Source: a virus. From it: a DNA stretch of 41,512 bases. The notes beneath the pieces are model-generated. The model was not told where the DNA came from. It did not search any database and worked only from the letters and a program-made list of their open reading frames with translations. The stretch lies in UHGV virus genome UHGV-0155266; one strand, 5' to 3'. Position 1 is the first letter of the stretch, and every line of letters begins with the position of its first letter. Position numbers and translations under genes: made by a program. This document shows positions 1-41,035 of this stretch, in pieces.

Positions 1-49
1 ACAGTCGTGACACGACGCTGAAAGTTCCCAAACACACAGGAAACAGAAA

Positions 50-229
50 ATGAACGTGAATACTGAGATTTTGAAACTCTGGCAATCTAGGGGCGAAAAT
101 GAGCGCACCGGATTCGATGCGGAGAGGGTTGCAGATATTGCCTGGGAGCAGGGATTACAACTTCACCGCAACCGGCAGGAACATTACCAGCGAGTGATGT
201 ACCTCATAGGCCATCGCAATATCGGTTAA
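50..229 (+). CDS. small hypothetical protein (59 aa)
   Basis: ATG at 50 with AGGAAA 8 nt upstream, in-frame stop at 227-229, followed by a hairpin and T-run. Below the ORF-track length cutoff; no recognisable motif. Confidence 0.3.
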   Translation: MNVNTEILKLWQSRGENERTGFDAERVADIAWEQGLQLHRNRQEHYQRVMYLIGHRNIG

Positions 230-237
230 CTCATACA

Positions 238-258
238 GGCCGCGCATGCGGCCTTTTT
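238..258 (+). terminator. rho-independent terminator-like hairpin
   Basis: GGCCGC/GCGGCC stem (238-243 and 248-253) followed by TTTTT at 254-258; lies between the small ORF and the convergent 445-aa gene. Confidence 0.5.
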
Positions 259-1594
259 AGTCTGGATATTGAACATCTACTTCATTTTTTCTAATCTCTG
301 ATGAGATTTTTGAGCACGCTTTTATTAATTCATCCAAGACAATAGCGAGTTTGGCAAAATCATAATTGCTAAAACCCTTACTTCCTGGTTTTAGTTTCAT
401 GAATTTTTTCGTGTAATAGTCTTTATTTTCCAGCGCTCCTTGATAAGCATCACTTTCCTTTTTGTAATTTGACCACCGGATTTTCGCTTCATCATAATCA
501 GAAAATCTTAGATCCAGATAGCATTCAATCGCTACAGCCCGGCCATTGATGTTTTCATAGGTAACGCCGTGAGGACCAATAGCTGGAAATTGATTGAAAT
601 GAGGAAGATCAGGAAGATGAATGCAGCTAATATTGTGAGGCAATGCGAGTTTGCGGATTTTTTCATATGCCTCAATCCCTTCGCAATCATTATCTAACAC
701 GAAAACAATCAAGTTTTGAATGTCGATTTTTACGAGCCCAGCAGCGAACTTAACCAGATTTCCTGAACCAGTGAACGGGTACCCTTCACTCATGTCGATA
801 AAGTGAAAAAAATCTTCTACATCAGGCCGTAAGAGGTGCAATGCGTATTTGATGACGTTGGAGTCGGTGCTTCCCTCGGTGGCAATCAGGAACTTGTCAC
901 GTCTGCGAGCATTTACCTGAATATCTTTTATATTCGCATAACCAGCAGAAACTAGATCTCCGTAATCCCAAGTGACGAATTCATTATGATTATTTGGATT
1001 TTCGGCCAAAAGTCGCATCACTGAGTATGGATGTAGTATGCTAACTAAAGTCCCAAAAGCAGACTTTTCAGACCAAGCATTATCAAAGGCATTGTCGTAT
1101 TGGGGTATCCTGCTTAATAATTCATCATTATTAAATCGGCCCTTGATAAGCTCGCGTTCTTTTATTCTATCTTTTAAGCTAATATAATCATCGTTTAGCT
1201 CGCTAATATTTACGCTCTTGATGAAGTTAACGAATTCATCAAAGCTCATCATGTTACTAATTGGCTTTGCATATTCCGGACAGGATTCGTTAAATTCCTC
1301 TTGGTATTCAATTGAATCTTTAGCCATGAGTTCATACTCATAGCGTATATTTTCAAGGGTGAAACCCAACAATTCCAATCGGTAGGCAACTTGCCCCAAA
1401 GGCTTACGCAACACAGTACGACAGAGGATGCCATCAGGAGTGTCGAAGTCCTCTCCTTCCTCTATTTGATCTTCATTTAGTGGTTTGACGTGATGATCGG
1501 CACTTTGAAACAGGCCTCCATGATCTATACCCAGCGAGTTCTTACTCCAATCTAGCCCCACTCCTGACACTTCAAGAGAAATTACAGTACCCAT
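257..1594 (-). CDS. Toprim-domain protein with uncharacterised N-terminal half (candidate nuclease/defence effector)
   Basis: 445-aa ORF with AAGG upstream. Translation has EGxxD (LIATEGSTD, near aa 238-244) and DxDxxG (LDNDCEG, near aa 300-306) about 60 aa apart, the Toprim signature. No Walker A motif anywhere. Confidence 0.8.
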   Translation of the reverse strand: MGTVISLEVSGVGLDWSKNSLGIDHGGLFQSADHHVKPLNEDQIEEGEDFDTPDGILCRTVLRKPLGQVAYRLELLGFTLENIRYEYELMAKDSIEYQEEFNESCPEYAKPISNMMSFDEFVNFIKSVNISELNDDYISLKDRIKERELIKGRFNNDELLSRIPQYDNAFDNAWSEKSAFGTLVSILHPYSVMRLLAENPNNHNEFVTWDYGDLVSAGYANIKDIQVNARRRDKFLIATEGSTDSNVIKYALHLLRPDVEDFFHFIDMSEGYPFTGSGNLVKFAAGLVKIDIQNLIVFVLDNDCEGIEAYEKIRKLALPHNISCIHLPDLPHFNQFPAIGPHGVTYENINGRAVAIECYLDLRFSDYDEAKIRWSNYKKESDAYQGALENKDYYTKKFMKLKPGSKGFSNYDFAKLAIVLDELIKACSKISSEIRKNEVDVQYPD

Positions 1595-1975
1595 AGTTCA
1601 ACCTTTGAATGGCATTTTCCGTTGTACCGCAATACTACCAATACGCCGATTGGGCATCCATGATTTGAACTGGCTTCTATGCTCTATTTTTAGCAAATTG
1701 GACTTACGCCACCCTGGTTGCGTCTACTTCTCGCTCACAAGGAGCCCTCAGCAACGCTAGCTCGTCCGCGCCGTGCCAGAAGCGGACGTTGACAGCAACT
1801 CATAATGCAAATTTTCAGGGAGTGGATCGTCATGTACTGAATTGAGCCTAAGTTACAGATGATACTTGCTGTAAAAGCAGGAGAGGAATTATTTACTCTA
1901 TTGTGATAAGAGCGTTTTTATATTAATATCTTACATACAAATAGATATCTGAATAAACATTCAATAAGGTTCCAT

Positions 1976-2905
1976 ATGTCTGAAATAACTTCAGCTCCTG
2001 CTGTTATGGCGGCACTAGTATCTGCATTAGTTACGGTTTTATTATTTTTTATAAAAGGTGTATGCACACCTTTATGGAATAAATATTTCATTGTTTACAA
2101 AATCAAAGTTGAACATAGCTACGAACAAAAGAAGAAAATCAAAGAGGCGATATCAAAATATAAAATGCCTTTACTCGATTCAGCTGAGTCATTGAATCAT
2201 AGGTTGTGGAATTTTTCAGGAAATTGCACTAAAGGATGGCATAATTTCAAAAATAATGAATCAATTGGTGATAAATATTACCTACAAACTTTTTGTTATC
2301 GATTTTTAGCATTTTATGCTTGGTGTATAAAGTTCGAAAGAGAGTTGATATATTTAGATGTAACACTTTCAGAAAAGAACGATCTTTATTTTGTGAAGTA
2401 TATTAAAACCATGCAAAATATATTTTGCGATGCTTCGATGTTGAGTGGGACTGGTTATGATAATGAGCATGCTGTAGACCATTTTTTCAAGGATGACCTT
2501 ATTAGTATTGTGGAAAAAATGATTACACCTACAGGAGTTATTACTTATTCAGAATTCAAATCTAAATCAGAGTCTGAATTAGACTATACACAGGTTTGCA
2601 AGTACATATCCACCATAATGAGTGACAAATCTTGCAATAAATGGCATTTAATTAACTGTTTCCATTTTATCCTGATGGCCTTTTTGTCAAAGTATGGATA
2701 TGACTATCAAAGAACTGGGTTGTTTAAACTATATAAGCTGCGCTGCTCAGAACCTCAAAATAAGCTGATAAATAATTTTGAAAGGTTAGTATTCAATGCA
2801 AGATTAAATAAATGCAGAGAAATAAAGAAAGCAATAACTATTCTCGAATGCAAATCTAAAATTGCCAATCTCTGTAATTCCCTGAAATTAATAAAAGAGA
2901 ATTAG
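1976..2905 (+). CDS. hypothetical membrane-anchored protein (AT-rich accessory gene)
   Basis: 309-aa ORF with one hydrophobic N-terminal helix (PAVMAALVSALVTVLLFFI), Lys/Asn/Tyr/Cys-rich remainder, AT-rich codon usage; divergent from the Toprim gene. No HExxH, so not Lit. Confidence 0.7.
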   Translation: MSEITSAPAVMAALVSALVTVLLFFIKGVCTPLWNKYFIVYKIKVEHSYEQKKKIKEAISKYKMPLLDSAESLNHRLWNFSGNCTKGWHNFKNNESIGDKYYLQTFCYRFLAFYAWCIKFERELIYLDVTLSEKNDLYFVKYIKTMQNIFCDASMLSGTGYDNEHAVDHFFKDDLISIVEKMITPTGVITYSEFKSKSESELDYTQVCKYISTIMSDKSCNKWHLINCFHFILMAFLSKYGYDYQRTGLFKLYKLRCSEPQNKLINNFERLVFNARLNKCREIKKAITILECKSKIANLCNSLKLIKEN

Positions 2906-3034
2906 CTTGTGAAGCATAAAACTAGTTGTTCTGTACGATAGAAAATGAGAGAACCCAAGTCCGCATTGTGAATAGTGTTTGAGCTGAAAATATCGCTAAG
3001 ACCCTGAAAATTTTTTGGAGAAGCAGATTTTAAT

Positions 3035-3058
3035 GTCCGCTTCTCGCTCTAAGCGGAC
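3035..3058. terminator. bidirectional terminator-like hairpin between accessory gene and int
   Basis: GTCCGCTT/AAGCGGAC 8-bp stem with 8-nt loop, T-rich on both sides; sits between convergent genes ending at 2905 and 3119. Confidence 0.5.
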
Positions 3059-3118
3059 TGTTTGAAGCTTTTTCATGAGTGTTAAGAAAATCAAGATGGC
3101 GTTGAATCGCTTGAATTT

Positions 3119-4249
3119 TCACAAAGCTACTTTGCTCCAGCCTTTCCCACGGTCATCATGATAACGATCGGTTTGTTGCTGTGTTTTGTGACCAAGTAGT
3201 TTTTGTGTATCTAATCCCTGTTCCTTGTAAAGGCGTTCAGATAAAGATCGTTGCTCATGGAATGTGGCAGGTGAACCTTCCCCCCAGTTAATTTCTGCTA
3301 AATCTCTTGCTTTACTAAAATTCATCGTCAATGTATTGGATTTTACCTGTGCTCCACGTTCTGCCTGCGAAGTTGAACGGAAAAAATGCACTAAGTATGG
3401 GCTGACTGCATAGTCACGGCAGCGAGCTACTACATCACGTAAACTCCAGTTAATCGCATTGAGGCGAAGAGAAAGCGGAATTGCGATTTTGCTCCCTGTC
3501 TTTTCTTGTACGACATGAAGATGATCATCCCAAATATCGCTAAATTTCATACGTGAAATATCACCTAACCGCTGACCAGTAACCAAGGCTAGCAGCATGG
3601 CATTTCCCATGTAACGATGGCTGGCATCTGCGATATCGAATATTTTTTTCCATTCTTCGAGGCTCAGCCGTTGTCGGGTAATTTTTCTTCTTGGCTGTTT
3701 AGTAGCTAATGCAGGGTTATAGCCAGGAGGTACTTCTCCGTAGTGCTGCGCCTCTTTGAAAACATCAATCAGGACGGATCGAACTACTTGTGCCATTCTC
3801 GGTTGCCCAGCGGCAATATACTCATCAAGTAATTGTGCAATATCCCGGACATCAACAGCTGAAATTAGCTTCAATCCTGCCCGTTCTCTAAGTAAGGAGA
3901 CAGGTTTGGCTTTCTGCTTGTAGGTGTTGAGCTTTATATCACCACTTTTCAGCCTGTCATTCTGGATCGCTTGATAGCGATCTAACCAAGTTGACGTTGT
4001 GATTGCTTTCCCTTTGCTGGTTGCGATCCTGTCACTGATGGCCAGAATCTGCCGGGTTCTTTGTTCAGCCAGGCGCGTATTGGCTTCAGTGGCAATAGCG
4101 ATAGCTTCAGCTTCGTTTGTTCCCAAAGCATGGAATTTCCCTGTTATTGGATGCTTATACCGCCAATAGACTTTATTTACCTTTCGGCTATAAAGCGGAT
4201 ATAAGTTAGGGACTGAAACATTATTCTTACGCGGTCTGGCTGCCATCAC
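3119..4249 (-). CDS. int: tyrosine integrase (lambda Int family)
   Basis: 376-aa ORF with the lambda-integrase-like layout (N-terminal arm-binding region, C-terminal catalytic region ending with conserved His/Tyr context); overlaps xis 3' end. Start is GTG at 4249 or ATG at 4246. Confidence 0.9.
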   Translation of the reverse strand: MMAARPRKNNVSVPNLYPLYSRKVNKVYWRYKHPITGKFHALGTNEAEAIAIATEANTRLAEQRTRQILAISDRIATSKGKAITTSTWLDRYQAIQNDRLKSGDIKLNTYKQKAKPVSLLRERAGLKLISAVDVRDIAQLLDEYIAAGQPRMAQVVRSVLIDVFKEAQHYGEVPPGYNPALATKQPRRKITRQRLSLEEWKKIFDIADASHRYMGNAMLLALVTGQRLGDISRMKFSDIWDDHLHVVQEKTGSKIAIPLSLRLNAINWSLRDVVARCRDYAVSPYLVHFFRSTSQAERGAQVKSNTLTMNFSKARDLAEINWGEGSPATFHEQRSLSERLYKEQGLDTQKLLGHKTQQQTDRYHDDRGKGWSKVAL

Positions 4250-4472
4250 TCAAAATCCGTTGCAAAAGTAATGAGTCATTTTTCTTAATTACTGGTGTTA
4301 CCAGCTCTCCAACTAACTCGGCGTCCTCACGCACTCGCCATAACCGACCTTGTTTCATTGCCGGTGGACAAAACAAATTCTGCTTAGCATAACGACGCAA
4401 CGTGGAAACGCTTGGAGGATTACTTCTGTATTTTTCAGAAGCCCATTCTTCAAGAGTTAACATTTGAAGCAT
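4227..4472 (-). CDS. xis: excisionase (lambda Xis-like)
   Basis: 81-aa ORF immediately upstream of and overlapping int; TLEEW...RRYAKQNLFCPPAMKQGRLW resembles the lambda Xis winged-helix core; AAGGTG 7-8 nt before the ATG. Confidence 0.8.
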   Translation of the reverse strand: MLQMLTLEEWASEKYRSNPPSVSTLRRYAKQNLFCPPAMKQGRLWRVREDAELVGELVTPVIKKNDSLLLQRILSDGSQTA

Positions 4473-4965
4473 ATGCGATCACCTTATTACTTCAATAACT
4501 GTTCAGTCTCTGCGTATCGACCCTGCAAGGTCGGTTAGTTTCTCCACAAAACAGAGAAGAACACCTGCGATGACTGCCGCCTGGATGGATTGGGTTATGA
4601 GCCCGTCGTCCGGTGATGCTCTTCTCTGTTTTGTAAAAAGGATGGTACCAGCCGGAAGCAAGGGTACAAACTGGTACCGTCAAGACTACACACAGCATAA
4701 AGTTGTGGTTCCGGGTGCCTCCCGGTGCCTGGCGAAGGTTGCACACCAGACGGGTGGGTATCCACAGAAGGTCGACTGTCAGCCTCAACCTTAACCCGCG
4801 TGCGCTGAGCCGCATTCACCACAACGCTAAGGATTCTCTCTGGTTGAAAATACTTAGCTGTTATGTGCCTGCTTTTAGCCACATCAGGCGAGGTGGACCT
4901 GGTTATTCCCCAACAACAAGGATTCGGTTAATCTGGTTATCCCCAACAACGCAAAAGGAAAAGAA
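4473..4965. other. GC-rich structured non-coding segment (candidate ncRNA or cis-element)
   Basis: Four overlapping stop-free frames on both strands and no RBS-led protein-like ORF. Perfect 15-bp inverted repeat 4546-4560/4620-4634 with 59-nt loop; 8-bp inverted repeat 4644-4651/4671-4678; further short GC stems. Confidence 0.35.
4898..4950 (+). repeat. direct repeat pair CTGGTTAT(T)CCCCAACAAC upstream of ORF 4966
   Basis: cctggttattccccaacaac at 4898-4917 and tctggttatccccaacaac at 4932-4950, about 34 bp apart, just 5' of the ATG at 4966. Confidence 0.6.
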
Positions 4966-5400
4966 ATGTCCGGTAATATCTATACGCTGTACAAATCCCA
5001 CTGTGAAAATGTTGGAAAGTATCGGGGCATTGAAATCAGTGGGGTAGTGTCATCAGTCGAAATAAGCAAAGTTGAATCAAGGGCAACATTACTTACTCTT
5101 CTGGACCTTGTCTTACATGAGCACCGGAAGAAATTCGGCACTCCCTATAATCAGTTGAATGGGAAAAAAGCTCTGGTTCACCTTATTCTGATGAAGCATC
5201 ACTGGATGCCAAAACAGATTAATGAGATGAAATTTGATGAACTTCTTCTTTCAATTCAGGATGAACTCACGCTTGATAAAATAAGCGTAACCGCCCAGAA
5301 ATTTTTAGATTATCGAGACTGGAGATCACAAATTCATCACTTTGATGATTTTGACGAAAATGAATGGGATCCTAATTTGTCTGCACAATATCTAAAGTAA
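4966..5400 (+). CDS. hypothetical protein (144 aa)
   Basis: ORF with AAGGAAAAG before the ATG; protein-like composition; no recognisable motif. Confidence 0.6.
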   Translation: MSGNIYTLYKSHCENVGKYRGIEISGVVSSVEISKVESRATLLTLLDLVLHEHRKKFGTPYNQLNGKKALVHLILMKHHWMPKQINEMKFDELLLSIQDELTLDKISVTAQKFLDYRDWRSQIHHFDDFDENEWDPNLSAQYLK

Positions 5401-5578
5401 CATCCTGTGATAAAACCGTGATTTCCTGATCCAGTTTTTTTAAGGAGTCTATTGTTTCCTGTCGATAAGACAGCACTTCACGAAGCTGGTTTATAGCTGC
5501 CAGCTTCTTTGCCATCCACTCGTAAATTTCCTCATTTGTGTATCCGGGTGCGACGATTTTTGGTTCTGTTTTGTGCAT
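5372..5578 (-). CDS. small hypothetical protein (68 aa, predicted helical)
   Basis: ATG at 5578 preceded by GGAGG with a 6-nt spacer; convergent with ORF 4966-5400 and overlapping its 3' end by 29 bp. The track ORF starts at an upstream TTG (5593). Confidence 0.5.
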   Translation of the reverse strand: MHKTEPKIVAPGYTNEEIYEWMAKKLAAINQLREVLSYRQETIDSLKKLDQEITVLSQDVTLDIVQTN

Positions 5579-5637
5579 TTCACACCTCCTCAAGTTATCA
5601 GTTACTTGTTGATGGGGACCAGATTGTTAAAGAGCTA

Positions 5638-5660
5638 AGCGTCCTGTAGGGCGCTTTTTT
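5638..5660 (+). terminator. terminator-like hairpin
   Basis: AGCGTCC...GGGCGCT imperfect stem followed by TTTTTT at 5655-5660. Confidence 0.45.
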
Positions 5661-5843
5661 GTTGCTAACGAATCATCCTGGACTTCATATGCCCCAGGCG
5701 GCTACTTCGTGGGCGTCCTGCCTGTTCGTTGTTTTAACACCTTTAAGTTGTAATTTAGTTGTGGTTTTGAATGTTGTCAACAACTTTATGTGGTTTGAAC
5801 GAGTAGCCAAGGAGTGCAAGGATTATCAAAAAAAGGAGGTTGT

Positions 5844-6734
5844 ATGGAAGACGCGCTTTACGCTTTTAATTACACACAGAACCGGGACAAGTTATTTGCT
5901 AACTTGATTAGCATCATTGATGGAATCATTGCAGATGGAGTTGTCCGTGAAGAGGAGGTTCTTTACTTAGATACATGGTTACTTGAAGCAAAGCAGATTA
6001 TCAATAATGGAGTTATAAAAAGTCTATCAGCACGGGTGTCGGATATTCTTGCGGATGGAATAATCACATCAGAAGAACGTGATGACCTTAAAAATAGCCT
6101 TCTCCAAATACAGAGGGAAATTCTTGATATCCCTGAAATTGATTTTTACTCCAAGGATGTAGATGTCCATTTACTTAATGGACTATGTAAAGGATTAATT
6201 GCTGATCGGAACTTAACTCAAGAAGAAATAAGATATCTTAATTGGTGGCTTGAGCAAAATGGAGCTTTGAAGAACAACTACCCAGGAAAAAAACTTTATG
6301 CACTTGTAAAGGAAATTCTTAAAGATGGGGTTATTACTGAAGATGAGAGTTTAACTCTACATAAGGCATTAGTAGACTTCACAGGATGTGACTTGGAAAG
6401 TGGGGTGGTGGATGGTTTGGCGACCAGGCTGCCTATTGATGTAGGGGCTTCGATAGAGTTAGAGGGTAAAACCTATTGTCTTACAGGCACTTTTGTTGCA
6501 GGAAAGAGAGCCGTAGTTGAAAATTTGATTAAAAATGCTGGTGGGAACATCAGTAGTGGAATTACTCAAAAGTTGGATTTTTTAGTAATTGGGACGCTTT
6601 CCTCCCGTGATTGGAAATTCTCAAGTCACGGAAGGAAGATCGAAAAAGCTATATCTTATAGGGATGATAATGGTGCAAAACTTAAAATTATTTCTGAAGA
6701 AATGCTTTTCGATGCATTACCAAGTTCGCGATGA
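5844..6734 (+). CDS. BRCT-domain protein with four N-terminal tandem repeats
   Basis: ATG at 5844 after AGGAGG. C-terminus (GKTYCLTGTF...LDFLVIG...) follows the NAD-ligase-type BRCT pattern. N-terminus has four roughly 45-aa repeats sharing a D-G-[VI]-[VI]-T-x-[ED]-E motif. Confidence 0.75.
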   Translation: MEDALYAFNYTQNRDKLFANLISIIDGIIADGVVREEEVLYLDTWLLEAKQIINNGVIKSLSARVSDILADGIITSEERDDLKNSLLQIQREILDIPEIDFYSKDVDVHLLNGLCKGLIADRNLTQEEIRYLNWWLEQNGALKNNYPGKKLYALVKEILKDGVITEDESLTLHKALVDFTGCDLESGVVDGLATRLPIDVGASIELEGKTYCLTGTFVAGKRAVVENLIKNAGGNISSGITQKLDFLVIGTLSSRDWKFSSHGRKIEKAISYRDDNGAKLKIISEEMLFDALPSSR

Positions 6735-7403: not shown

Positions 7404-7538
7404 AACATATCCCTCTCTTTTTTGATGAGGTTACAACTTTATGTTTTAGCTTTCCAACATCTAAAAGTTGTGATAAAAGTTGTTAATGTTGTATTCTTGC
7501 AACTCGTAACAACTTAACTACCAAAAAAGGAGAAAGCT
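7404..7538. promoter_or_regulatory. immunity-region operator/promoter block between cI and cro
   Basis: Five copies of the half-site ACAACTT/AAGTTGT in both orientations (near 7433, 7465, 7477, 7499, 7509) within a 135-bp divergent intergenic region; AAGGAG precedes cro. Confidence 0.6.
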
Positions 7539-7787: not shown

Positions 7788-7809
7788 CCACAGTTTTAAG
7801 GAGATAGCC

Positions 7810-34299: not shown

Positions 34300-34847
34300 T
34301 GAAGGCGATTGAAACCATACAGCGACAACTCCTCGGCCTGATTGGGCGGGCGGTGGTGAAAAGCATCAGTGCCGCCACGAAATGTCAGACCGTGGATGTG
34401 TCCCTGATTGCCGGTGAACCCAAAGCCGGGGTTGAACATCTTGAACCCTACGGTTTTACCGCAAGGGCAAACAGCGGTGCGGAAGCGGTGGTGTTGTTTC
34501 CGGATGGTGACCGTTCTCATGCGGTGGTTGTTACGGTGTCGGACCGGCGCTACCGCCTGAAAGGGCTGCAGACGGGTGAGGTGGCTGTCTATGACGATCA
34601 GGGGCAGTCCGTGACGCTGACCCGGGCGGGGATCGTGGTGGACGGTGCAGGTAAAACGATCACGTTTCGCAATGCGCCTAAGGCTCGTTTTGAAATGGAC
34701 CTGGAAGTGACCGGACAGGTGAAAGACCTGTGCGACTCCAGCGGCACCACCATGTCAGCGATGCGGCTTGCCTATAACGGGCATCGTCACAGAGAGAACG
34801 GTCAGGGCAGTAACACCGACAAACCTGATAAAGCGATGGAGGCATGA
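34299..34847 (+). CDS. baseplate spike/assembly protein (Mu gp45, gpV-like)
   Basis: 182-aa ORF by position and size. Confidence 0.7.
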   Translation: MKAIETIQRQLLGLIGRAVVKSISAATKCQTVDVSLIAGEPKAGVEHLEPYGFTARANSGAEAVVLFPDGDRSHAVVVTVSDRRYRLKGLQTGEVAVYDDQGQSVTLTRAGIVVDGAGKTITFRNAPKARFEMDLEVTGQVKDLCDSSGTTMSAMRLAYNGHRHRENGQGSNTDKPDKAMEA

Positions 34848-35272
34848 TGGAACTGTGGCTGACGGTGAACGGTAAACGCACCTGCGCCAGCGCACCGCTG
34901 GATCCGCTGACCCGTGCCGTGGTGATTTCCCTGTTCACCTGGCGGCGGGCTGAACCTGATGACAATGCCGACGTCCCGATGGGATGGTGGGGGGATACCT
35001 GGCCTGCGGTACAGAATGACCGTTACGGCTCCCGACTGTGGCTGCTTCAGCGCAGCAAACTGACCAATCAGCTGGTGCAGACGGTAAGGGGGTATATCCG
35101 CGAATGCCTGCAATGGATGATTGATGACGGCGTGGTGTCCCGTATTGATCTGGATATCCGCCGCACCGGGATTAATGAACTGGGTAACAGTATCACTCTC
35201 TGGCGTCGTGACGGACCGGTAATGATTTCTTTTGATGATCTGTGGAGTGCGATAACGCATGGCGGACAGTGA
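34844..35272 (+). CDS. baseplate protein (Mu gp46, gpW/gp25-like)
   Basis: 142-aa ORF by position and size. Confidence 0.7.
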   Translation: MMELWLTVNGKRTCASAPLDPLTRAVVISLFTWRRAEPDDNADVPMGWWGDTWPAVQNDRYGSRLWLLQRSKLTNQLVQTVRGYIRECLQWMIDDGVVSRIDLDIRRTGINELGNSITLWRRDGPVMISFDDLWSAITHGGQ

Positions 35273-36317
35273 ATTTCAGCGCCCGACGCTGGCAGAAAAT
35301 ATCAGTATGCTCCGTAACGATTTATTCGCCAGGCTGGACGTCAGCGACACGCTCCGGCGCATGGATGAAGACGTGCGGGCAAAGGTGTATGCGGCGGCGC
35401 TGCATACGGTTTACGGTTACATCGATTATCTGGCAATGAACATGCTGCCTGACCTGTGCGATGAGTCCTGGCTGGCGCGACATGCTGCGATGAAACGGTG
35501 TCCGCGCAAGGGAGCCACGGCTGCCAGTGGGTATATGCGCTGGGAAGGTGTCAGCGATGGCCTGAAGGTGACCGCCGGGAGTGTTATTCAGCGCGATGAC
35601 CTGGTGCAGTACACGACAACTGACGATGCAACCAGCTCCGGTGGTGTCCTGCGCGTGCCGATCGCCTGCTCAAGTGCAGGTGCGGTCGGTAACGCTGACG
35701 ACGGTACGGCATTAATCCTGGTCACGCCGGTGAATGGTCTGCCGTCTTCCGGTGTGGCTGACACCCTGACAGGCGGATTTGATACTGAAGAGCTGGAAAC
35801 GTGGCGCGCCCGCGTCATTGAGCGGTATTACTGGACGCCGCAGGGCGGGGCTGACGGGGACTATGTTGTCTGGGCTAAAGAAGTGCCCGGCATTACCCGC
35901 GCATGGACATACCGTCACTGGATGGGAACGGGAACTGTCGGTGTGATGATTGCCAGCAGTGACCTGATTAATCCCATTCCGGAAGAATCAACGGAAACGG
36001 CGGCAAGACAACATATCGAGCCACTGGCCCCGGTGGCAGGCTCTGATTTGTATGTGTTCAGGCCGGTGGCACATACGGTGGATTTTCATATCCGTGTGAC
36101 GCCGGACACACCGGAAATACGGGCTGCCATCACCGCGGAGTTGCGTTCGTTCCTGCTGCGTGATGGTTATCCGCAGGGAGAACTGAAGGTATCGCGTATC
36201 AGTGAGGCGATTTCCGGTGCGAACGGGGAATACAGCCATCAGTTGCTTGCACCGGCAGACAATATCTCCATTGCAAAAAATGAACTGGCGGTACTGGGGA
36301 CGATTTCATGGACGTGA
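35259..36317 (+). CDS. baseplate J-like protein (Mu gp47)
   Basis: 352-aa ORF by position and size; equivalent to e14 jayE as recalled. Confidence 0.8.
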
Positions 36318-36892
36318 CAAACGATGATTACATCCGTCTGTTGTCGGCACTGTTGCCCCCCGGTCCGGCGTGGTCAGCCAGCGATCCGGCGATTGCCGGT
36401 GCGGCACCGTCATTAACCCGCGTTCATCAGCGTGCGGATGCCCTGATGCGGGAGCTGGATCCGCGCACCACCACTGAACTGATAAACCGCTGGGAGCGTC
36501 TGTGCGGTCTGCCGGATGAATGTATTCCCGCAGGGACACAGACCCTTCGCCAGCGTCAGCAACGGCTGGATGCGAAGGTTAACCTGGCGGGCGGAATCAA
36601 CGAGGATTTTTATCTTGCACAGCTTGCTGCCCTGGGCAGACCAGATGCCACCATCACGCGATACGACAAAAGCACGTTCACCTGCTCATCGGCCTGTACT
36701 GACGCTGTGAACGCGCCTGAATGGCGGTATTACTGGCAGGTCAACATGCCAGCCGCCACCAACACCACCTGGATGACATGTGGCGATCCCTGTGATTCCG
36801 CACTGCGTATCTGGGGCGACACAGTTGTCGAATGTGTGCTTAACAAACTCTGCCCGTCGCATACCTACGTAATTTTTAAATATCCGGAGTAA
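36308..36892 (+). CDS. tail protein (Mu gp48-like, YmfQ/DUF2313-like)
   Basis: 194-aa ORF between the J-like gene and the tail fibre gene. Confidence 0.65.
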
Positions 36893-36895: not shown

Positions 36896-37558
36896 ATGCA
36901 TCGTATAGACACGAAAACCGCGCAGAAGGATAAGTTCGGCGCGGGTAAGAACGGTTTTACCCGTGGTAACCCCCAGACCGGCACGCCTGCCACCGATCTG
37001 GATGATGACTACTTTGACATGTTGCAGGAGGAGCTTTGCAGCGTTGTGGAGGCGTCCGGTGCCAGCCTGGAGAAGGGGCGGCACGACCAGCTACTTACCG
37101 CGCTTCGCGCGCTGCTGTTAAGCCGCAAGAATCCGTTTGGCGATATCAAATCGGATGGCACGGTGAAAACGGCTCTCGAAAACCTTGGTTTGGGAGAAGC
37201 GGCAAAACGGAATGTGGGGACAGGGGAAAATCAGATACCGGACATGGCCTCTTTTGCCAGTGGTGATGGATGGATGAAATTACCCAACGGTAAAATTCTG
37301 CAATATGGTCGAGGCGAGGCTATGCCGAAATTATCGACGCAAACAATGAGGATTACATTTCCTATCCCTTTCCCTAAAAAAGCGGACTGCGCCATTCTTA
37401 CCCATTCTGGTGATGGCGGTGCGCCTTTAGGCGCTGGGCGAGGGTTCGTGATGACTGCAGAAGGCCCTACGTTAACCGGCTTTAATTCTGCTTACAGAAC
37501 GTCATCAACCAGTGACACGGTATCTATGCATTACAGTTGGTGGGCTGTTGGTGAGTAA
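36896..37558 (+). CDS. tail fibre protein (constant N-terminus plus currently expressed variable C-terminus)
   Basis: 220-aa ORF; the constant part ends at GLGE, encoded across the left inversion site near 37185; the C-terminal 124 aa lie inside the invertible segment. Confidence 0.75.
37173..37198. repeat. left Pin recombination site (gix/pix-like)
   Basis: ctctcgaaaaccttggtttgggagaa; its 3' 14 nt are identical to the reverse complement of 39064-39077. Confidence 0.6.
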
Positions 37559-37569
37559 TTTTATTCAGG

Positions 37570-38022
37570 GTGATTTATATGAACGAATATGTTTATAGTG
37601 CCAGGCATAATGCTTTTTTCCCTGTGGATATGATTGATAAATATAAATCAGTAGGATGGGATTTATCAGATGCTAAGGAGGTGAATCAAAATATTGTCAG
37701 TGAGTTTATGGCTGAACCGCCACAAGGAAAAGTCCGTATTGCCGGAGAGGATGGACTACCTGCGTGGGCAGATATTCCTCCACCTACTCATGAAGAGCTT
37801 ATTGAAATTACTGAATCAGAAAGACAGCTACTAATTAACCAGGCTAACGAATACATGAACGGTAAGCAATGGCCTGGTAAAGCCGCTATTGGTCGTCTGA
37901 AAGGTGAGGAACTGGCGCAATATAATTTGTGGCTGGATTATCTGGACGCACTGGAGCTGATCGATACTTCCGGTGCGCCAGATATTGAATGGCCTACGCC
38001 TCCGGCAATTCAGGCCAGATGA
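37570..38022 (+). CDS. tail fibre assembly protein (active orientation)
   Basis: 150-aa ORF directly after the tail fibre gene; its C-terminal motif (DTSGAPDIEWPTPP) parallels that of the opposing copy (DTSTAPDVIWPELP). Confidence 0.7.
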   Translation: MIYMNEYVYSARHNAFFPVDMIDKYKSVGWDLSDAKEVNQNIVSEFMAEPPQGKVRIAGEDGLPAWADIPPPTHEELIEITESERQLLINQANEYMNGKQWPGKAAIGRLKGEELAQYNLWLDYLDALELIDTSGAPDIEWPTPPAIQAR

Positions 38023-38596
38023 CATCCGGCGCTGTGCTGGTATCTGTTGCCGTCACCGCGTCAATGTAATCCAGCACAGCGTTAAGGCGGGTTGTTTCTG
38101 CCTGCGTCAGCTTCCGTCCGGCCTGTAATTTCAGTTGAATCAGACTGATGGAGGCCATTGCAGTATCAATCAGCGACTGGCGCTGTGCTTCTGCTGCATC
38201 TACTGCTGCGCCGTGCTGTGCCTCGGTATCTGTCACCCATTTCTCACCATTCCATTCATCGTATGGCGTTAACGGGGCGATAGTGGTTGTATTTTCAGGA
38301 TAATCACCCGGAGCTGTGATTTCTTTCGATTCTCCTGTTTCGGTGCTATAGACAATTTCACCGCGATGATCTGGCACATATTCCCATGAGTTTAAATCCA
38401 TCGAACGGCAGATAGCATAACCCGCCTTATGTGTGCCAGGGGCATCTAAACAGGAATATGCAGGGATACCGACACCAATGGCAAGATATTCATTTGAAGT
38501 GGAAATATATTCCCGAGTTTTACCATCATAGTTATAGACGGTAATATTCCCCGCCTTCGTGGCAATAAGCTCGCTATTTAATACGGCGTTATCCAT
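37994..38596 (-). CDS. tail fibre assembly protein (alternative, inverted orientation)
   Basis: 200-aa ORF on the minus strand inside the invertible segment, convergent with and overlapping the plus-strand tfa. Confidence 0.7.
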   Translation of the reverse strand: MDNAVLNSELIATKAGNITVYNYDGKTREYISTSNEYLAIGVGIPAYSCLDAPGTHKAGYAICRSMDLNSWEYVPDHRGEIVYSTETGESKEITAPGDYPENTTTIAPLTPYDEWNGEKWVTDTEAQHGAAVDAAEAQRQSLIDTAMASISLIQLKLQAGRKLTQAETTRLNAVLDYIDAVTATDTSTAPDVIWPELPEA

Positions 38597-39076
38597 TATG
38601 CAGCCCTCACGATAAAATTAAATGCAATATTTCGTGGACGGGTTTCATTCCCGCCAGTATTACCGATACTCCCTCGTGAATGAAGTGTCGGTGATGGGAT
38701 CAGACTCCCTCCTGTATTTGTGGCATCAAGTCCCCGTCCTTGTGTGTATGTCTTTTTGAAAATCGTAGCCAGTTCCCATTCATCTTTTGTGTCGTAACCA
38801 TCATTTGCAACAACAATATGGCGGTGTTTTTCCAGCATCCCTGTCTGAATGCTCAATAAAACACGTCCTGCATCAATACCGCGCCCGTCATCCCAGCCAC
38901 GAATAAACTCACCGCGTAAATCAGGTAATTTATTTGTTGGATAAGCCTTTGCCAGTTCCGGGTATTCTTCAGCAGAAAATGCCGCACCGTTGCATTTCAG
39001 CCAGCCTGTTGGCGGTGTGGCTGAAGGCCATGGAACAGGCACACCAACAGGTAATGCAGAGCCTTCTCCCAAACCA
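38596..39076 (-). CDS. alternative tail fibre variable C-terminus (silent until inversion)
   Basis: Minus-strand frame encoding ...NVGLGEGSALP... and a Gly-rich fibre tip; it shares the GLGE junction with the expressed fibre at the inversion site and has no start codon of its own. Confidence 0.65.
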
Positions 39077-39089
39077 ACGTTTATGAAAA
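39064..39089. repeat. right Pin recombination site (gix/pix-like)
   Basis: ttctcccaaaccaacgtttatgaaaa, inverted relative to 37173-37198. Confidence 0.6.
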
Positions 39090-39143
39090 TGCAGAAATAA
39101 CGAGCAAATGGCATCATTCCTGCTTTTGTCAGGGGGATCTACC

Positions 39144-39698
39144 ATGCTTATTGGCTATGTACGCGTATCAACAAATGACCAGAACACAGATCTACAACGT
39201 AATGCGCTGAACTGTGCAGGATGTGAGCTGATTTTTGAAGACAAGATAAGCGGTACAAAGTCCGAAAGGCCGGGACTGAAAAAACTGCTCAGGACATTAT
39301 CGGCAGGTGACACGCTGGTGGTCTGGAAACTGGACCGGCTGGGGCGCAGTATGCGGCATCTTGTCGTGCTGGTGGAGGAGTTGCGCGAACGAGGCATCAA
39401 CTTTCGTAGTCTGACGGATTCAATTGATACCAGTACCCCAATGGGGCGCTTTTTCTTTCATGTGATGGGTGCCCTGGCTGAAATGGAGCGTGAACTGATT
39501 GTTGAAAGAACAAAAGCTGGACTGGAAGCTGCTCGCGCACAGGGACGAATTGGTGGACGTCGTCCCAAACTTACACCAGAACAATGGGAACAGGCCGGAC
39601 GATTAATTGCATCAGGAGTTCCTCGCCAGAAGGTGGCGATTATCTATGATGTTGGTGTGTCAACTTTGTATAAGAGGTTTCCTGCAGGGGATAAATAA
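39144..39698 (+). CDS. pin: DNA invertase Pin (serine recombinase, Gin/Hin/Pin family)
   Basis: MLIGYVRVSTNDQ N-terminus with the catalytic Ser, resolvase domain and C-terminal HTH; closely matches e14 PinE as recalled; adjacent to the invertible segment. Confidence 0.9.
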   Translation: MLIGYVRVSTNDQNTDLQRNALNCAGCELIFEDKISGTKSERPGLKKLLRTLSAGDTLVVWKLDRLGRSMRHLVVLVEELRERGINFRSLTDSIDTSTPMGRFFFHVMGALAEMERELIVERTKAGLEAARAQGRIGGRRPKLTPEQWEQAGRLIASGVPRQKVAIIYDVGVSTLYKRFPAGDK

Positions 39699-39804
39699 AG
39701 TTAAAGACACTTTTTGTACAAAAGAGAATAAAACAACAGCAACTTGTTGCAATTTTATCAATAAAAGTAGTATTGTCGTGAAAAATTGATTAAAGATTAA
39801 TATT

Positions 39805-40638
39805 ATGCATGTTTTTGATAATAATGGAATTGAACTGAAAGCTGAGTGTTCGATAGGTGAAGAGGATGGTGTTTATGGTCTAATCCTTGAGTCGTGGGGG
39901 CCGGGTGACAGAAACAAAGATTACAATATCGCTCTTGATTATATCATTGAACGGTTGGTTGATTCTGGTGTATCCCAAGTCGTAGTATATCTGGCGTCAT
40001 CATCAGTCAGAAAACATATGCATTCTTTGGATGAAAGAAAAATCCATCCTGGTGAATATTTTACTTTGATTGGTAATAGCCCCCGCGATATACGCTTGAA
40101 GATGTGTGGTTATCAGGCTTATTTTAGTCGTACGGGGAGAAAGGAAATTCCTTCCGGCAATAGAACGAAACGAATATTGATAAATGTCCCAGGTATTTAT
40201 AGTGACAGTTTTTGGGCGTCTATAATACGTGGAGAACTATCAGAGCTTTCACAGCCTACAGATGATGAATCGCTTCTGAATATGAGGGTTAGTAAATTAA
40301 TTAAGAAAACGTTGAGTCAACCCGAGGGCTCCAGGAAACCAGTTGAGGTAGAAAGACTACAAAAAGTTTATGTCCGAGACCCGATGGTAAAAGCTTGGAT
40401 TTTACAGCAAAGTAAAGGTATATGTGAAAACTGTGGTAAAAATGCTCCGTTTTATTTAAATGATGGAAACCCATATTTGGAAGTGCATCATGTAATTCCC
40501 CTGTCTTCAGGTGGTGCTGATACAACAGATAACTGTGTTGCCCTTTGTCCGAATTGCCATAGAGAATTGCACTATAGTAAAAATGCAAAAGAACTAATCG
40601 AGATGCTTTACGTTAATATAAACCGATTACAGAAATAA
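39805..40638 (+). CDS. mcrA: McrA-like modified-cytosine restriction endonuclease (HNH)
   Basis: 277-aa protein with a C-terminal HNH motif (HHVIPLSSGGADTTDNCVALCPNCH); sequence and position (after pin at the e14 right end) match E. coli McrA as recalled. Confidence 0.85.
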   Translation: MHVFDNNGIELKAECSIGEEDGVYGLILESWGPGDRNKDYNIALDYIIERLVDSGVSQVVVYLASSSVRKHMHSLDERKIHPGEYFTLIGNSPRDIRLKMCGYQAYFSRTGRKEIPSGNRTKRILINVPGIYSDSFWASIIRGELSELSQPTDDESLLNMRVSKLIKKTLSQPEGSRKPVEVERLQKVYVRDPMVKAWILQQSKGICENCGKNAPFYLNDGNPYLEVHHVIPLSSGGADTTDNCVALCPNCHRELHYSKNAKELIEMLYVNINRLQK

Positions 40639-40869
40639 AATTATTTATTAAAGTCACATTTAAGACGTAATACCCTACAGGGTAAAAATTTTCTCTGATC
40701 TTAACTTCTGCAAATGTTAACTGCTATTTTTATGCTAAAAATGGTTATCAAAACTCAAAAACACATGTTTATAATCAATGAGTTATAGAAATGCTAAGGG
40801 CTAATGAGTTATATGCAAATTAGTAAAATTATGTTGCTATGTCAAATAGTTACGATTTAGTCATCTAAC

Positions 40870-41035
40870 TAATGTTACGCCATATGGGCTGGACTGAAGC
40901 CGCAGACTTGATTGTTAAAGGTATGGAAGGCGCAATCAATGCGAAGACCGTAACCTATGATTTCGAACGTCTGATGGAAGGTGCTAAACTGCTGAAATGC
41001 AGCGAGTTTGGTGATGCGATCATCAAGAACATGTA
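40870..41035 (+). pseudogene. icdC: displaced 3' fragment of icd (attR)
   Basis: In-frame translation ...[55 protein letters not shown] matches the Icd C-terminus with no upstream gene body; homology begins near 40870. Confidence 0.8.

What the first reader, a model, noticed from the sequence alone, without database searches (positions are those of the whole stretch)
1..40882. Apparently complete mosaic e14-like prophage: lambdoid early region, HK97-like head and Mu-like contractile tail
K-12 e14, as I recall it, is a deleted remnant lacking most replication-to-tail genes, with a fused ymfN/oweE region. This window carries an uninterrupted replication gene, full lysis, packaging and head modules, and a full Mu-type sheath, tube and baseplate set, so it may represent an intact, inducible relative that documents the ancestral architecture and its variable cargo slots.
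Basis: partly seen in the sequence, partly recalled or inferred. Interest (0 to 1): 0.45.

Follow-up and report, generated by a model that had tools for sequence, protein, structure and literature searches.

The report
Intact e14-family (SfV-like) prophage at icd
The window holds a full-length, apparently undamaged relative of the K-12 e14 remnant, a lambda-organised phage with an HK97-type head and a Mu-type contractile tail inserted in the icd gene; this phage type is already well known (Shigella phages SfV, SfII, SfI) and common in E. coli, so the finding is correct but ordinary.

Summary
The window carries about 41 kb of an icd-integrated prophage. It runs from a point about 0.5 kb inside the element (attL lies left of the window) to attR at 40872-40888. 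All packaging, head, tail, lysis, replication and regulatory ORFs are full length. They have the same stop positions as their counterparts in the inducible Shigella phage SfII and are 83-100% identical in protein sequence. The cos site, tail-chaperone frameshift site, Pin-invertible fibre module and an SOS-cleavable repressor are all intact.

K-12 e14 equals this architecture minus two deletions with short microhomology at the junctions: window 8946-20512 and about 22251-35526. These deletions created ymfN (oweE/aaaE) and beeE/jayE.

The kind is known. "SfV-like" lambdoid myoviruses were defined years ago, and a full-length "e14" of E. coli S88 was used in 2013. At least 293 of 5426 complete E. 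coli genomes carry 80% or more of the right half at this locus. Strain 20AR0354 even has a full-length copy with K-12-type immunity genes.

Only the cargo set is unusual. A rare gene pair (a PF18871-Toprim nuclease-like protein plus a 59-aa ORF) sits where K-12 has lit. Inducibility is predicted from sequence, not shown.

The parts
1..3118 (.). Cargo slot between attL (outside the window) and int. It holds a 59-aa ORF at 50-229(+), a PF18871+Toprim protein at 257-1594(-), and a 309-aa membrane-anchored all-helical orphan at 1976-2905(+).
3119..4246 (-). Integrase IntE (lambda-type tyrosine recombinase).
   Evidence: 97% aa identity to K-12 IntE over the full length. Pfam Arm-DNA-bind_1 plus Phage_integrase.
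4227..4472 (-). Excisionase XisE.
   Evidence: 98% aa identity to K-12 XisE. Pfam Exc.
4473..6716 (.). Accessory region between xis and the repressor. It holds ymfH-like small ORFs at 4492-4882(-), an ECs1072-family ORF at 4966-5400(+), and a BRCT-domain protein at 5844-6734(+).
   Evidence: RefSeq flags the ymfH-like ORF as frameshifted in the 99.9%-identical relative. It is a small non-essential ORF that also varies between SfII and K-12.
6717..7403 (-). CI-like repressor (HTH plus S24 peptidase), predicted to be SOS-cleavable.
   Evidence: Pfam HTH_3 plus Peptidase_S24. An Ala-Gly site (LSAGNG), a Ser (GNSLLP) and a Lys (RVK) are visible in the translation. There is no nucleotide homology to the K-12 ymfK (cohE) repressor gene.
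7404..7538 (.). Divergent promoter/operator region with repeated GTTACAAC / AAGTTGT motifs.
   Evidence: Direct and inverted repeats. The operator role is inferred.
7539..8702 (+). Cro-like protein (7539-7787), YmfL, a CII-like regulator (7810-8367), and YmfM (8364-8702).
   Evidence: Pfam YdaS_toxin and Phage_CP76. YmfL and YmfM are 99% identical to K-12. K-12 annotates YmfM as a cell division inhibitor.
8712..9653 (+). Uninterrupted replication-initiator-like gene (313 aa). K-12 keeps only codons 1-78.
   Evidence: 98-99% aa identity over the full length to SfII and vB_EcoM-689R6. K-12 matches only residues 1-79. Junction shown.
9650..14098 (+). Nin-like region and late activator: PerC/YfdN, Dam-type methylase, LexA-DNA-binding-domain protein, RusA, KilA-N, DUF968/HNH, and antiterminator Q (13346-14098).
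14099..16437 (+). Cargo slot between Q and the holin: ORFs at 14253-14783 and 14941-15159, and an orphan N6/N4 DNA methyltransferase at 15309-16361.
   Evidence: Pfam N6_N4_Mtase, E 3.5e-42. PADLOC MTase_II, E 5.9e-152. GC 0.38 at 14001-15000.
16438..17771 (+). Lysis cassette: lambda-family holin (16438-16773), endolysin (16777-17253), Rz (17237-17629), and embedded Rz1 (17514-17771).
   Evidence: RefSeq names in the 100%-identical relative. 83-96% aa identity over the full length to SfII S, R and Rz.
17793..18816 (-). Two opposite-strand cargo ORFs (208 aa and 117 aa) between the lysis genes and cos.
   Evidence: Only PHROG families of unknown function match. An IS3 copy sits here in the sibling prophage.
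18949..19299 (+). HNH endonuclease next to cos (HK97-style packaging accessory).
   Evidence: 94-97% aa identity to SfII and 689R6. RefSeq name.
19365..19374 (+). cos: exact copy of the 10-nt cohesive end TGCCCGCCCC determined experimentally for phage SfI.
   Evidence: Sequence read. SfI cos from PMC3636060. The flanks match the left end of the SfII record almost exactly.
19425..21649 (+). Terminase small subunit (19425-19919) and large subunit (19916-21649). K-12 keeps only large-subunit residues 200-577.
   Evidence: Pfam Terminase_4, TerL_ATPase and TerL_nuclease. 99% identical to SfII.
21661..26953 (+). Head and connector genes: ymfR, portal (21843-23084), S78 prohead protease (23062-23712), HK97-family major capsid protein (23727-24932), gp6-like connector, head closure, neck, and tail terminator.
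   Evidence: Pfam PF04860, PF04586, PF05065, PF05135, PF05521 and PF23840. 93-100% identical to SfII with the same stops.
26962..31211 (+). Mu-type tail genes: DUF2635 (Mup38-like), sheath (27116-28612), tube (28612-28968), chaperone (28968-29237) with a -1 slippery site T_TTT_TTC at 29219-29225 leading into the ORF that ends at 29386, and tape measure (29379-31211).
   Evidence: Pfam sheath domains, Tail_tube, Phage_TAC_7 and PhageMin_Tail. Slippery site read. 98-100% identical to SfII.
31303..31833 (+). Moron inside the tail operon: a 176-aa protein with an N-terminal hydrophobic segment, low GC, and its own terminator-like hairpin.
   Evidence: Absent from SfII, 689R6 and 20AR0354. Present in about 175 of 5426 genomes; in the 12 listed hits it lies between the tape measure and DNA-circularisation genes. 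Sequence. GC 0.39.
31895..36892 (+). Mu-type baseplate genes: N/gp43-like (DNA_circ_N), P/gp44-like, gp45, gp46, gp47/Baseplate_J (35259-36317), and gp48/YmfQ.
   Evidence: Pfam PF07157, GpP/Gp44 domains, PF06890, PF07409, PF04865 and PF10076. 96-100% identical to SfII.
36896..39117 (.). Tail fibre module with an invertible segment. The expressed set is the fibre (36896-37558) and its assembly protein (37570-38022). The silent set is tfaE (37994-38596, -) and an alternative fibre C-terminus (38596-39117, -). The 20-nt inverted repeats lie at 37180-37199 and 39063-39082.
   Evidence: Inverted repeat found. In-silico inversion gives an in-frame 256-aa fibre followed by TfaE.
39144..39698 (+). 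PinE serine invertase.
   Evidence: 98% aa identity to K-12 PinE.
39805..40638 (+). McrA, a methylcytosine-dependent restriction endonuclease (cargo next to attR).
   Evidence: 100% aa identity to K-12 McrA.
40872..41036 (+). attR core (40872-40888) and the displaced icd 3' fragment (icdC).
   Evidence: The 17-nt core is identical to the one in the icd of NZ_CP180607. This stretch is 84% identical to the K-12 icd 3' end. Annotated as partial icd in relatives.
8946..20512 (.). Interval missing from K-12 e14 (deletion 1, 11.6 kb).
   Evidence: blastn breakpoints. GGT microhomology and the in-frame RQG|DGSSPH junction.
22251..35526 (.). Interval missing from K-12 e14 (deletion 2, about 13.3 kb; ends uncertain by the 4-8 nt overlap).
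   Evidence: blastn breakpoints. GGTA microhomology.

Best explanation
The window is an E. coli chromosomal segment carrying a full-length temperate prophage of the SfV-like group (lambdoid gene order, HK97-type head, Mu-type contractile tail). It belongs to the e14 lineage, which integrates into the 3' end of icd through IntE/XisE.

Shown from sequence:
- every gene needed for excision, immunity, replication, late activation, lysis, cos packaging, head, tail and fibre assembly is an open, full-length ORF matching a functional phage;
- cos, the chaperone frameshift site and the Pin inversion sites are intact;
- K-12 e14 is the same backbone after two short-microhomology deletions totalling 24.8 kb.

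Inferred life cycle:
- DNA damage triggers RecA-assisted self-cleavage of the S24 repressor;
- Cro, YmfL and the replication genes are then expressed, and Int/Xis excise the element and restore icd;
- Q switches on the late operon;
- the HNH endonuclease and terminase cut at TGCCCGCCCC and fill an HK97-type head;
- a Mu-type tail is attached, and Pin switches between two fibre C-termini to change host range;
- holin, endolysin and Rz/Rz1 release the particles.

Six low-GC slots carry exchangeable cargo: attL-int, xis-cI, Q-holin, Rz-cos, tape measure-gp43, and pin-attR. In the lysogen these supply mostly defence-type functions: McrA, orphan methylases and a Toprim nuclease-like protein.
For: - Locus and boundaries.
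- Collinearity with SfII, SfI, SfIV and SfV: about 97% nucleotide identity over the structural half and about 95% over much of the early half. 61% of the prophage aligns to SfII at 96.5% identity.
- ORF integrity: 40 or more proteins with the same stops as SfII or 689R6.
- Pfam families for all modules.
- cos identical to the experimentally mapped SfI end.
- Slippery site.
- Inversion keeps the reading frame.
- Repressor catalytic motifs.
- K-12 deletion junctions.
- The K-12 junctions occur in 283-284 of 5426 genomes, whereas the unfused genes occur in well over a thousand more.
- Full-length relatives at icd exist in other complete genomes, for example 20AR0354 and TUM1880.
- The inferred length of about 41.4 kb lies within the 37.1-41.5 kb range of SfV, SfI, SfIV and SfII.
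Against: - No experiment exists on this element. Missense or regulatory defects cannot be seen by ORF comparison.
- attL is not in the window, so the intactness of the left junction is inferred from a relative.
- One small early ORF (ymfH-like, 4492-4882) is irregular.
- The immunity region differs from both K-12 and SfII, so its operators and SOS response are untested.
- The closest relative (99.9% identity over the left half) is itself decayed by IS3 copies and a deletion that removes the tail genes from the tail terminator to the fibre module. This shows the lineage does decay quickly.
- The GenBank 'phage' record vB_EcoM-689R6 carries host flanks and so looks like an in-silico prophage extract. 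It is not evidence of particles.
Confidence: 0.9

Rival explanations
1. The prophage has a complete set of ORFs but is cryptic. Some regulatory, missense or attL defect would stop it from excising or forming infectious particles, as was long argued for the related Salmonella ST64B (that background is from memory).
For: Nothing in the sequence proves function. Sibling prophages decay quickly. The left junction is not in the window.
Against: There are no stops or frameshifts in any of the 40 or more conserved genes. Identity to plaque-forming SfII and SfI is 93-100% in the structural proteins, and cos, the slippery site and the inversion sites are intact. Int and Xis are 97-98% identical to those of K-12 e14. 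From memory (Brody, Greener and Hill 1985), K-12 e14 still excises on SOS induction.
Confidence: 0.25
2. The window is an assembly chimera, or two adjacent prophage fragments, rather than one element.
For: Nearest relatives differ along the window. The left 21 kb is 99.9% identical to one strain, while the right half is about 97% identical to others.
Against: The same collinear arrangement from icd to icdC occurs in independent complete genomes and in the free phage genomes SfII and SfV. There is one int, one cos, and one set of each structural gene. Identity to the sibling declines gradually from about 22 kb, as expected for recombination between related phages.
Confidence: 0.02
3. K-12 e14 is not a deletion derivative of this architecture. 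On this view it is an independently assembled mosaic that merely shares modules.
For: The immunity region, the attL-proximal cargo and the fibre tips differ between K-12 and the window.
Against: Both K-12 junctions fall inside genes that are whole here (replication gene joined to terminase; portal joined to baseplate J). They have 3-4 nt of microhomology, and the flanks are 96-99% identical. A full-length prophage with K-12-type ymfK/ymfT immunity exists at the same site.
Confidence: 0.02

Closest known systems
Shigella flexneri serotype-converting phages SfII, SfI, SfIV and SfV (the 'SfV-like' lambdoid myoviruses)
   Same: They have the same gene order from cos to the tail fibres and through the early right operon. 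The structural half is about 97% identical in nucleotide sequence, and SfII aligns to 61% of the prophage at 96.5% identity. The 10-nt cos is identical, and the HK97-type head, Mu-type tail and lambda-type lysis genes are shared.
   Different: The Shigella phages integrate at thrW with a different int/xis and carry gtr O-antigen modification genes after the fibres. In SfII no match was found to the Pin invertase, the silent fibre cassette or McrA. The repressor and Cro differ (30% aa identity or no match), and the cargo in every slot differs.
Cryptic prophage e14 of E. coli K-12
   Same: It uses the same icd attachment site and has an icdC fragment. Protein identities to K-12 are IntE 97%, XisE 98%, YmfL and YmfM 99%, YmfR 100%, YmfQ 98%, TfaE 90%, PinE 98% and McrA 100%.
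   Different: K-12 lacks window intervals 8946-20512 and about 22251-35526, which fuses genes into ymfN and beeE/jayE. K-12 has ymfD/ymfE/lit instead of the Toprim cassette, and ymfI/ymfJ/ymfK (cohE)/ymfT (croE) instead of the ECs1072/BRCT genes and this repressor pair. The fibre tips are only 51-62% identical.
Full-length 'e14' prophages of other E. coli strains (S88 as used in PMC3636060; 20AR0354, TUM1880)
   Same: For 20AR0354, the site and overall architecture from icd to icdC are the same, at 95-97% identity over shared parts. 20AR0354 also carries K-12-type immunity genes. S88 is cited from PMC3636060, and TUM1880 was seen only as blast matches.
   Different: The cargo differs in the attL-int, xis-cI and Q-holin slots, the immunity type differs, and 20AR0354 lacks the tail-operon moron.
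Salmonella phage ST64B and Stx2e phage phiP27
   Same: They share a related terminase-to-sheath module: 84% nucleotide identity for ST64B over 9.6 kb, and about 80% for phiP27 over the head genes.
   Different: They are more distant, infect other hosts, use other attachment sites, and have different early regions.
Phage 21 and lambda-like siphovirus prophages at icd (for example NC-SV of strain NC101)
   Same: They use the same chromosomal attachment site in icd (PMC12803456).
   Different: They carry lambda-type head and non-contractile tail genes and belong to a different structural lineage.

Membership tests
e14-lineage prophage (icd-integrating) | Inserted in the 3' end of icd, leaving a displaced icd fragment (icdC) at the right junction | tested here: met
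   The attR core lies at 40872-40888 and icdC runs to 41036, followed by iraM. The same 17-nt core is present inside the icd of the 99.9%-identical relative. attL itself lies outside the window.
e14-lineage prophage (icd-integrating) | IntE/XisE-type integrase and excisionase | tested here: met
   97% and 98% aa identity over the full length to K-12 IntE and XisE.
e14-lineage prophage (icd-integrating) | Collinear backbone shared with K-12 e14, including the Pin-invertible fibre segment and mcrA next to attR | tested here: met
   Seven collinear blocks of 88-99% nucleotide identity. Inverted repeats and in-frame inversion.
e14-lineage prophage (icd-integrating) | Same immunity specificity as K-12 e14 (ymfK/cohE and ymfT/croE) | tested here: not met
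   The repressor and Cro have no match in K-12. The element is predicted to be heteroimmune. This does not affect lineage membership, because immunity cassettes are exchangeable among lambdoid phages.
SfV-like lambdoid myoviruses | Lambda-like order of functional modules (int-xis, cI/cro, replication, nin, Q, lysis, cos, head, tail) | tested here: met
   The order is collinear with SfII.
SfV-like lambdoid myoviruses | HK97-type packaging and head genes with an HNH endonuclease at cos | tested here: met
   PF05119, TerL domains, PF04860, PF04586, PF05065 and PF05135. HNH at 18949-19299 and cos at 19365-19374.
SfV-like lambdoid myoviruses | Mu-type contractile tail and baseplate gene set, in Mu order | tested here: met
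   DUF2635, sheath, Tail_tube, TAC_7, tape measure, DNA_circ_N, GpP/Gp44, Mu_Gp45, GP46, Baseplate_J and Mu_Gp48.
SfV-like lambdoid myoviruses | Contractile-tailed virion seen by electron microscopy; plaque formation | not testable with these tools
   SfI was induced, formed plaques and has myovirus morphology (PMC3636060). SfV-like phages are described as lambdoid Myoviridae (PMC3603311). Nothing is known for this element.
Phage Mu (transposable phages) | Replicative transposition with MuA/MuB and random insertion | tested here: not met
   Insertion is site-specific at icd and uses a tyrosine integrase. No transposase is annotated in the window-equivalent genes of the relatives, apart from IS3 copies that the window lacks. 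Only the tail is Mu-like.
HK97-like siphoviruses | Long non-contractile tail | tested here: not met
   Sheath and baseplate genes are present. Only the head and packaging module is HK97-like.

The most novel reading that the evidence does not exclude
The rare two-gene cassette in the attL-int slot may be an uncharacterised phage-defence or abortive-infection module that has replaced Lit in this e14 relative. It consists of a 445-aa PF18871 plus OLD/retron-Ec67-type Toprim protein at 257-1594(-) and a conserved 59-aa ORF at 50-229(+). If so, the attL-int slot of icd prophages would be a defence-gene exchange point. The cassette has no PADLOC model. It recurs in a Citrobacter island with the same small partner, and the large protein belongs to a family of about 1000 proteins in diverse bacteria, mostly Proteobacteria among the named hits.
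Probability: 0.35. Interest if true: 0.4.

Novelty: new member of a known kind. Interest (0 to 1): 0.12.

Why it matters
Mainly as a clean reference. The window shows base by base how the textbook K-12 e14 remnant arose: two deletions with short microhomology at the junctions, one of them in frame. It also shows that e14 belongs to the SfV-like phages. This explains the odd K-12 genes ymfN, beeE and jayE.

That picture is already implicit in the K-12 annotation and in the Shigella phage literature, and hundreds of sequenced E. coli strains carry such prophages. It therefore opens no new question. The modest added value lies in the map of six cargo slots and in one rare, uncharacterised Toprim cassette sitting where K-12 has the Lit abortive-infection gene.

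Tried and rejected
- tRNA scan and Rfam scan of the whole window found nothing. No C0293-like sRNA is detectable, and the K-12 C0293 region has no homologue here.
- PADLOC found nothing for nine of the ten cargo proteins. The exceptions were the methylase and a weak PDC-S48 hit to the BRCT protein.
- PDB sequence searches for three cargo proteins gave nothing useful.
- The idea that the 309-aa gene and the Toprim gene form one system was rejected. Their family sizes differ about tenfold, and their homologues sit in unrelated contexts.
- vB_EcoM-689R6 was considered as proof that such a phage is released. This was rejected because the record includes icd, rluE and other host genes, and the only paper that mentions it analyses phages located in the genomes of clinical isolates.
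- The papers by Mehta et al. 2004 and Allison et al. 2002 could not be read in the held library. What I say about them is from memory or from papers that cite them.
- The 'frameshifted' ymfH-like ORF was checked as a possible hidden defect. It is a short, variable accessory ORF, not an essential gene.

Full report
**What is in the window.** The window is E. coli chromosome. Its right end carries a displaced 3' fragment of icd (40872-41036) followed by iraM (41139-41462, minus strand), exactly as in K-12. Its left end lies just downstream of icd. In strain PS1Thumoskin9 (NZ_CP180607), which is 99.9% identical to window 1-21000, the icd stop codon is about 350 bp left of window position 1. The 17-nt sequence ATGTTACGCCATATGGG, which recurs at window 40872-40888, sits about 510 bp to the left, inside icd. 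The prophage therefore runs from an attL just outside the window to attR at 40872-40888, roughly 41.4 kb.

**Modules.** From left to right the window holds the following.
- A cargo block at 1-3118.
- intE and xisE on the minus strand.
- A short accessory region.
- A CI-like repressor with helix-turn-helix and S24 peptidase domains (6717-7403, minus strand), facing a Cro-like gene across an intergenic region with repeated GTTACAAC-type motifs.
- ymfL (CII-like), ymfM, and an uninterrupted 313-codon replication gene.
- A nin-like block: PerC/YfdN, Dam-type methylase, a LexA DNA-binding-domain protein, RusA, KilA-N and DUF968.
- Antiterminator Q and a second cargo block with an orphan methyltransferase.
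- The lysis genes: lambda-family holin, endolysin, and Rz with embedded Rz1.
- Two opposite-strand cargo ORFs.
- An HNH endonuclease, cos, and the small and large terminase subunits.
- ymfR, portal, S78 protease, HK97-family capsid protein, connector and neck proteins.
- A Mu-ordered tail: DUF2635, sheath, tube, chaperone, tape measure, N/gp43-like, P/gp44-like, gp45, gp46, gp47/J and gp48.
- An invertible fibre module, pinE and mcrA.

Pfam confirms each assignment at scores far above the curated cut-offs.

**Integrity.** I translated 62 ORFs and compared them with stop-to-stop ORFs from five reference loci. Every packaging, head, tail, baseplate, lysis, replication and late-control protein aligns end to end with its counterpart in Shigella phage SfII and/or vB_EcoM-689R6. 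Stop positions are the same, and identity is 83-100% (93-100% for structural proteins). The tape measure differs only in its last residues, where a moron begins.

Non-coding functional sites are also intact.
- The 10-nt cohesive end TGCCCGCCCC, determined by sequencing virion DNA of phage SfI (PMC3636060), is present exactly at 19365-19374, between the HNH gene and the small terminase gene. The flanks are nearly identical to the left end of the SfII record.
- The tail chaperone gene carries a canonical -1 slippery heptamer, T_TTT_TTC, at 29219-29225. It leads into the overlapping -1 frame ORF that ends at 29386.
- Twenty-nucleotide inverted repeats at 37180-37199 and 39063-39082 lie in the same codon phase. 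In-silico inversion yields an in-frame 256-aa alternative fibre followed by TfaE.
- The repressor shows an Ala-Gly site and Ser and Lys motifs of the LexA/CI self-cleaving type.

The only irregular ORF is a short ymfH-like reading frame at 4492-4882. RefSeq flags it as frameshifted in the sibling strain. It is a variable accessory ORF, not an essential gene. I found no hidden inactivating mutation. Missense and regulatory defects cannot be excluded by this kind of comparison.

**Relation to K-12 e14.** blastn of the window against MG1655 1194500-1213500 gives collinear blocks:
- int/xis region: 90.7% identity;
- ymfL, ymfM and the start of the replication gene: 99.1%;
- the second half of the large terminase, ymfR and the start of portal: 96.5%;
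- the end of baseplate J, ymfQ and the fibre N-terminus: 97.6%;
- tfaE: about 90%;
- pinE, mcrA, icdC and iraM: 96.5%.

Two intervals of the window are absent from K-12.
- The first is 8946-20512. It joins codon 78 of the replication gene in frame to residue 200 of the large terminase across a GGT microhomology (RQG|DGSSPH). This produces the protein that K-12 annotates as 'chimeric replication protein/phage terminase YmfN', also listed as oweE plus aaaE.
- The second is about 22251-35526. It joins portal to baseplate J across GGTA and gives beeE and jayE.

Together the two intervals remove 24.8 kb. Adding that to the 15.2 kb of e14 gives about 40 kb. Both K-12 junctions occur in 283-284 of 5426 complete genomes, a set that includes K-12 laboratory strains. 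The separate halves of each junction occur in well over a thousand further genomes.

The window is not the literal ancestor, however. Its immunity region, its attL-proximal cargo and its fibre tips differ from those of K-12. A closer 'intact e14', with K-12-type ymfK and ymfT, exists at icd in strain 20AR0354.

**What it is called in the literature.** The structural half is about 97% identical in nucleotide sequence to Shigella phages SfII, SfI, SfIV and SfV. Much of the early right operon is about 95% identical. SfII aligns collinearly to 61% of the prophage at 96.5% identity. SfI is an inducible, plaque-forming myovirus. Its genome paper compares it gene by gene with a full-length 'e14' of E. 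coli S88 and finds 97% nucleotide identity over the first 22 ORFs (PMC3636060). Bobay and colleagues treat 'SfV-like' phages, defined as lambdoid Myoviridae, as a separate group of enterobacterial prophages, and they list icd among the most occupied integration hotspots (PMC3603311). In the present collection, 293 of 5426 complete genomes hold 80% or more of window 21001-41512 in one place. The kind of element, and the existence of intact e14-type copies, are therefore already known.

**Mosaicism and decay.** No complete genome in the collection contains this exact element.
- The left 21 kb is 99.9% identical to PS1Thumoskin9. That prophage carries three IS3-family copies and has lost everything from the tail terminator to the fibre module.
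- Identity to that strain declines gradually from about 22 kb onward.
- The right half is at best about 97% identical to other strains.

This is the usual picture of recombining lambdoid prophages. It also shows a second, independent route of decay in the same lineage.

**Cargo slots.** Six low-GC intervals differ between relatives.
- *attL-int (1-3118).* K-12 has ymfD, ymfE and lit here, 689R6 has a DUF262 protein, and 20AR0354 has two other genes.
  - In the window the slot first holds a 445-aa protein whose N-terminal half is PF18871 (HEPN/Toprim N-terminal domain). Its C-terminal half carries invariant TEGxSD and DNDxEG motifs.
  - This protein has no PADLOC model.
  - It is accompanied by a convergent 59-aa ORF. 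An 80%-identical copy of that ORF sits beside the 87%-identical homologue in a Citrobacter island.
  - The slot also holds a 309-aa membrane-anchored all-helical orphan with 99 homologues, no Pfam family and no fold match. Its Yersinia homologue sits in the Q-lysis slot of another prophage.
  - This 3.1-kb block occurs in only 4 of 5426 genomes.
- *xis-cI.* An ECs1072-family ORF and a BRCT-domain protein.
- *Q-holin.* Two small ORFs and an orphan N6/N4 methyltransferase.
- *Rz-cos.* Two opposite-strand ORFs.
- *Tape measure-gp43.* A 176-aa protein with an N-terminal hydrophobic segment and its own terminator-like hairpin. It is present in about 175 genomes, and in the 12 listed hits it lies between the tape measure and DNA-circularisation genes.
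- *pin-attR.* McrA, 100% identical to K-12.

That these genes serve the lysogen, several of them as defence functions, is an inference from their families and positions. It is not a result.

**Verdict.** Inducibility is plausible (I estimate about 0.7) but untested. The element is a new mosaic member of a well-known kind, and a specialist would not be surprised. The only lead with some novelty is the Toprim cassette in the Lit position.

Noticed in passing
window 50-1594: A 445-aa protein has a PF18871 N-terminal domain and a C-terminal Toprim domain of the OLD/retron-Ec67 type. A conserved convergent 59-aa ORF accompanies it. The pair has no PADLOC model, recurs in a Citrobacter genomic island, and sits in the slot where K-12 e14 carries lit. 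The 3.1-kb block at window 1-3100 that contains this pair occurs in only 4 of 5426 complete E. coli genomes.
   Followed up: partly
window 1976-2905: A 309-aa protein has an N-terminal transmembrane helix and an all-helical body. The model is confident (pLDDT 91), but there is no Pfam, PHROG, NCBIfam or PADLOC family and no meaningful fold match. It has 99 homologues in Yersinia, Proteus, Providencia, Aeromonas, Shewanella, Pseudomonas and other genera. The Yersinia copy lies in the Q-lysis moron slot of another prophage.
   Followed up: partly
window 31212-31894: A low-GC moron is inserted between the tape measure and gp43-like genes of the tail operon. It encodes a 176-aa protein with an N-terminal hydrophobic segment and is followed by its own terminator-like hairpin. 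It is present at 99% identity or more in about 175 complete genomes. In the 12 listed hits it lies between the tape measure and DNA-circularisation genes. Function unknown.
   Followed up: partly
L001 and L006 (NZ_CP180607, 873352-906576): The closest relative of the window's left half (99.9% identity) is a decaying copy. It has two IS3 insertions in cargo regions. A third IS3-family element marks a deletion from the tail terminator to the fibre module. This is a route of prophage decay independent of the two K-12 deletions.
   Followed up: yes
window 8364-8722: ymfM, which K-12 annotates as a cell division inhibitor, overlaps a 59-codon DUF4222 ORF (8543-8722) in another frame. RefSeq annotates one or the other depending on the genome. 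The DUF4222 ORF is 100% conserved in K-12, SfII and 689R6, while YmfM is 96-99% conserved.
   Followed up: no
window 10794-11120: A 108-aa protein consists only of a LexA DNA-binding domain and has no S24 peptidase domain. It is conserved at 97% in SfII and 689R6. It could interfere with LexA-controlled promoters or act in the lysis-lysogeny circuit.
   Followed up: no
window 10144-10797, 15309-16361 and 39805-40638: One prophage carries two orphan DNA methyltransferases (one Dam-type, one N6/N4-type) together with McrA, a methylcytosine-dependent restriction enzyme.
   Followed up: no
window 5844-6734: A 296-aa protein with a C-terminal BRCT domain lies next to the repressor gene on the opposite strand. 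It matches phrog_3989 (unknown function) and matches the PADLOC candidate PDC-S48 only weakly (E 2.4e-07).
   Followed up: no
window 19318-19375: The cos overhang sequence CCCGCCCC (within 19367-19374) has its reverse complement GGGGCGGG about 40 nt upstream (about 19326-19333). Together they form an inverted repeat around the predicted terminase cutting region.
   Followed up: no
L005 (ON470584, Escherichia phage vB_EcoM-689R6): This GenBank 'phage' record contains host genes (icd, rluE, nudJ, mnmA, hflD) and appears to be an in-silico prophage extraction with chromosomal flanks. It should not be read as evidence that such particles were isolated.
   Followed up: partly
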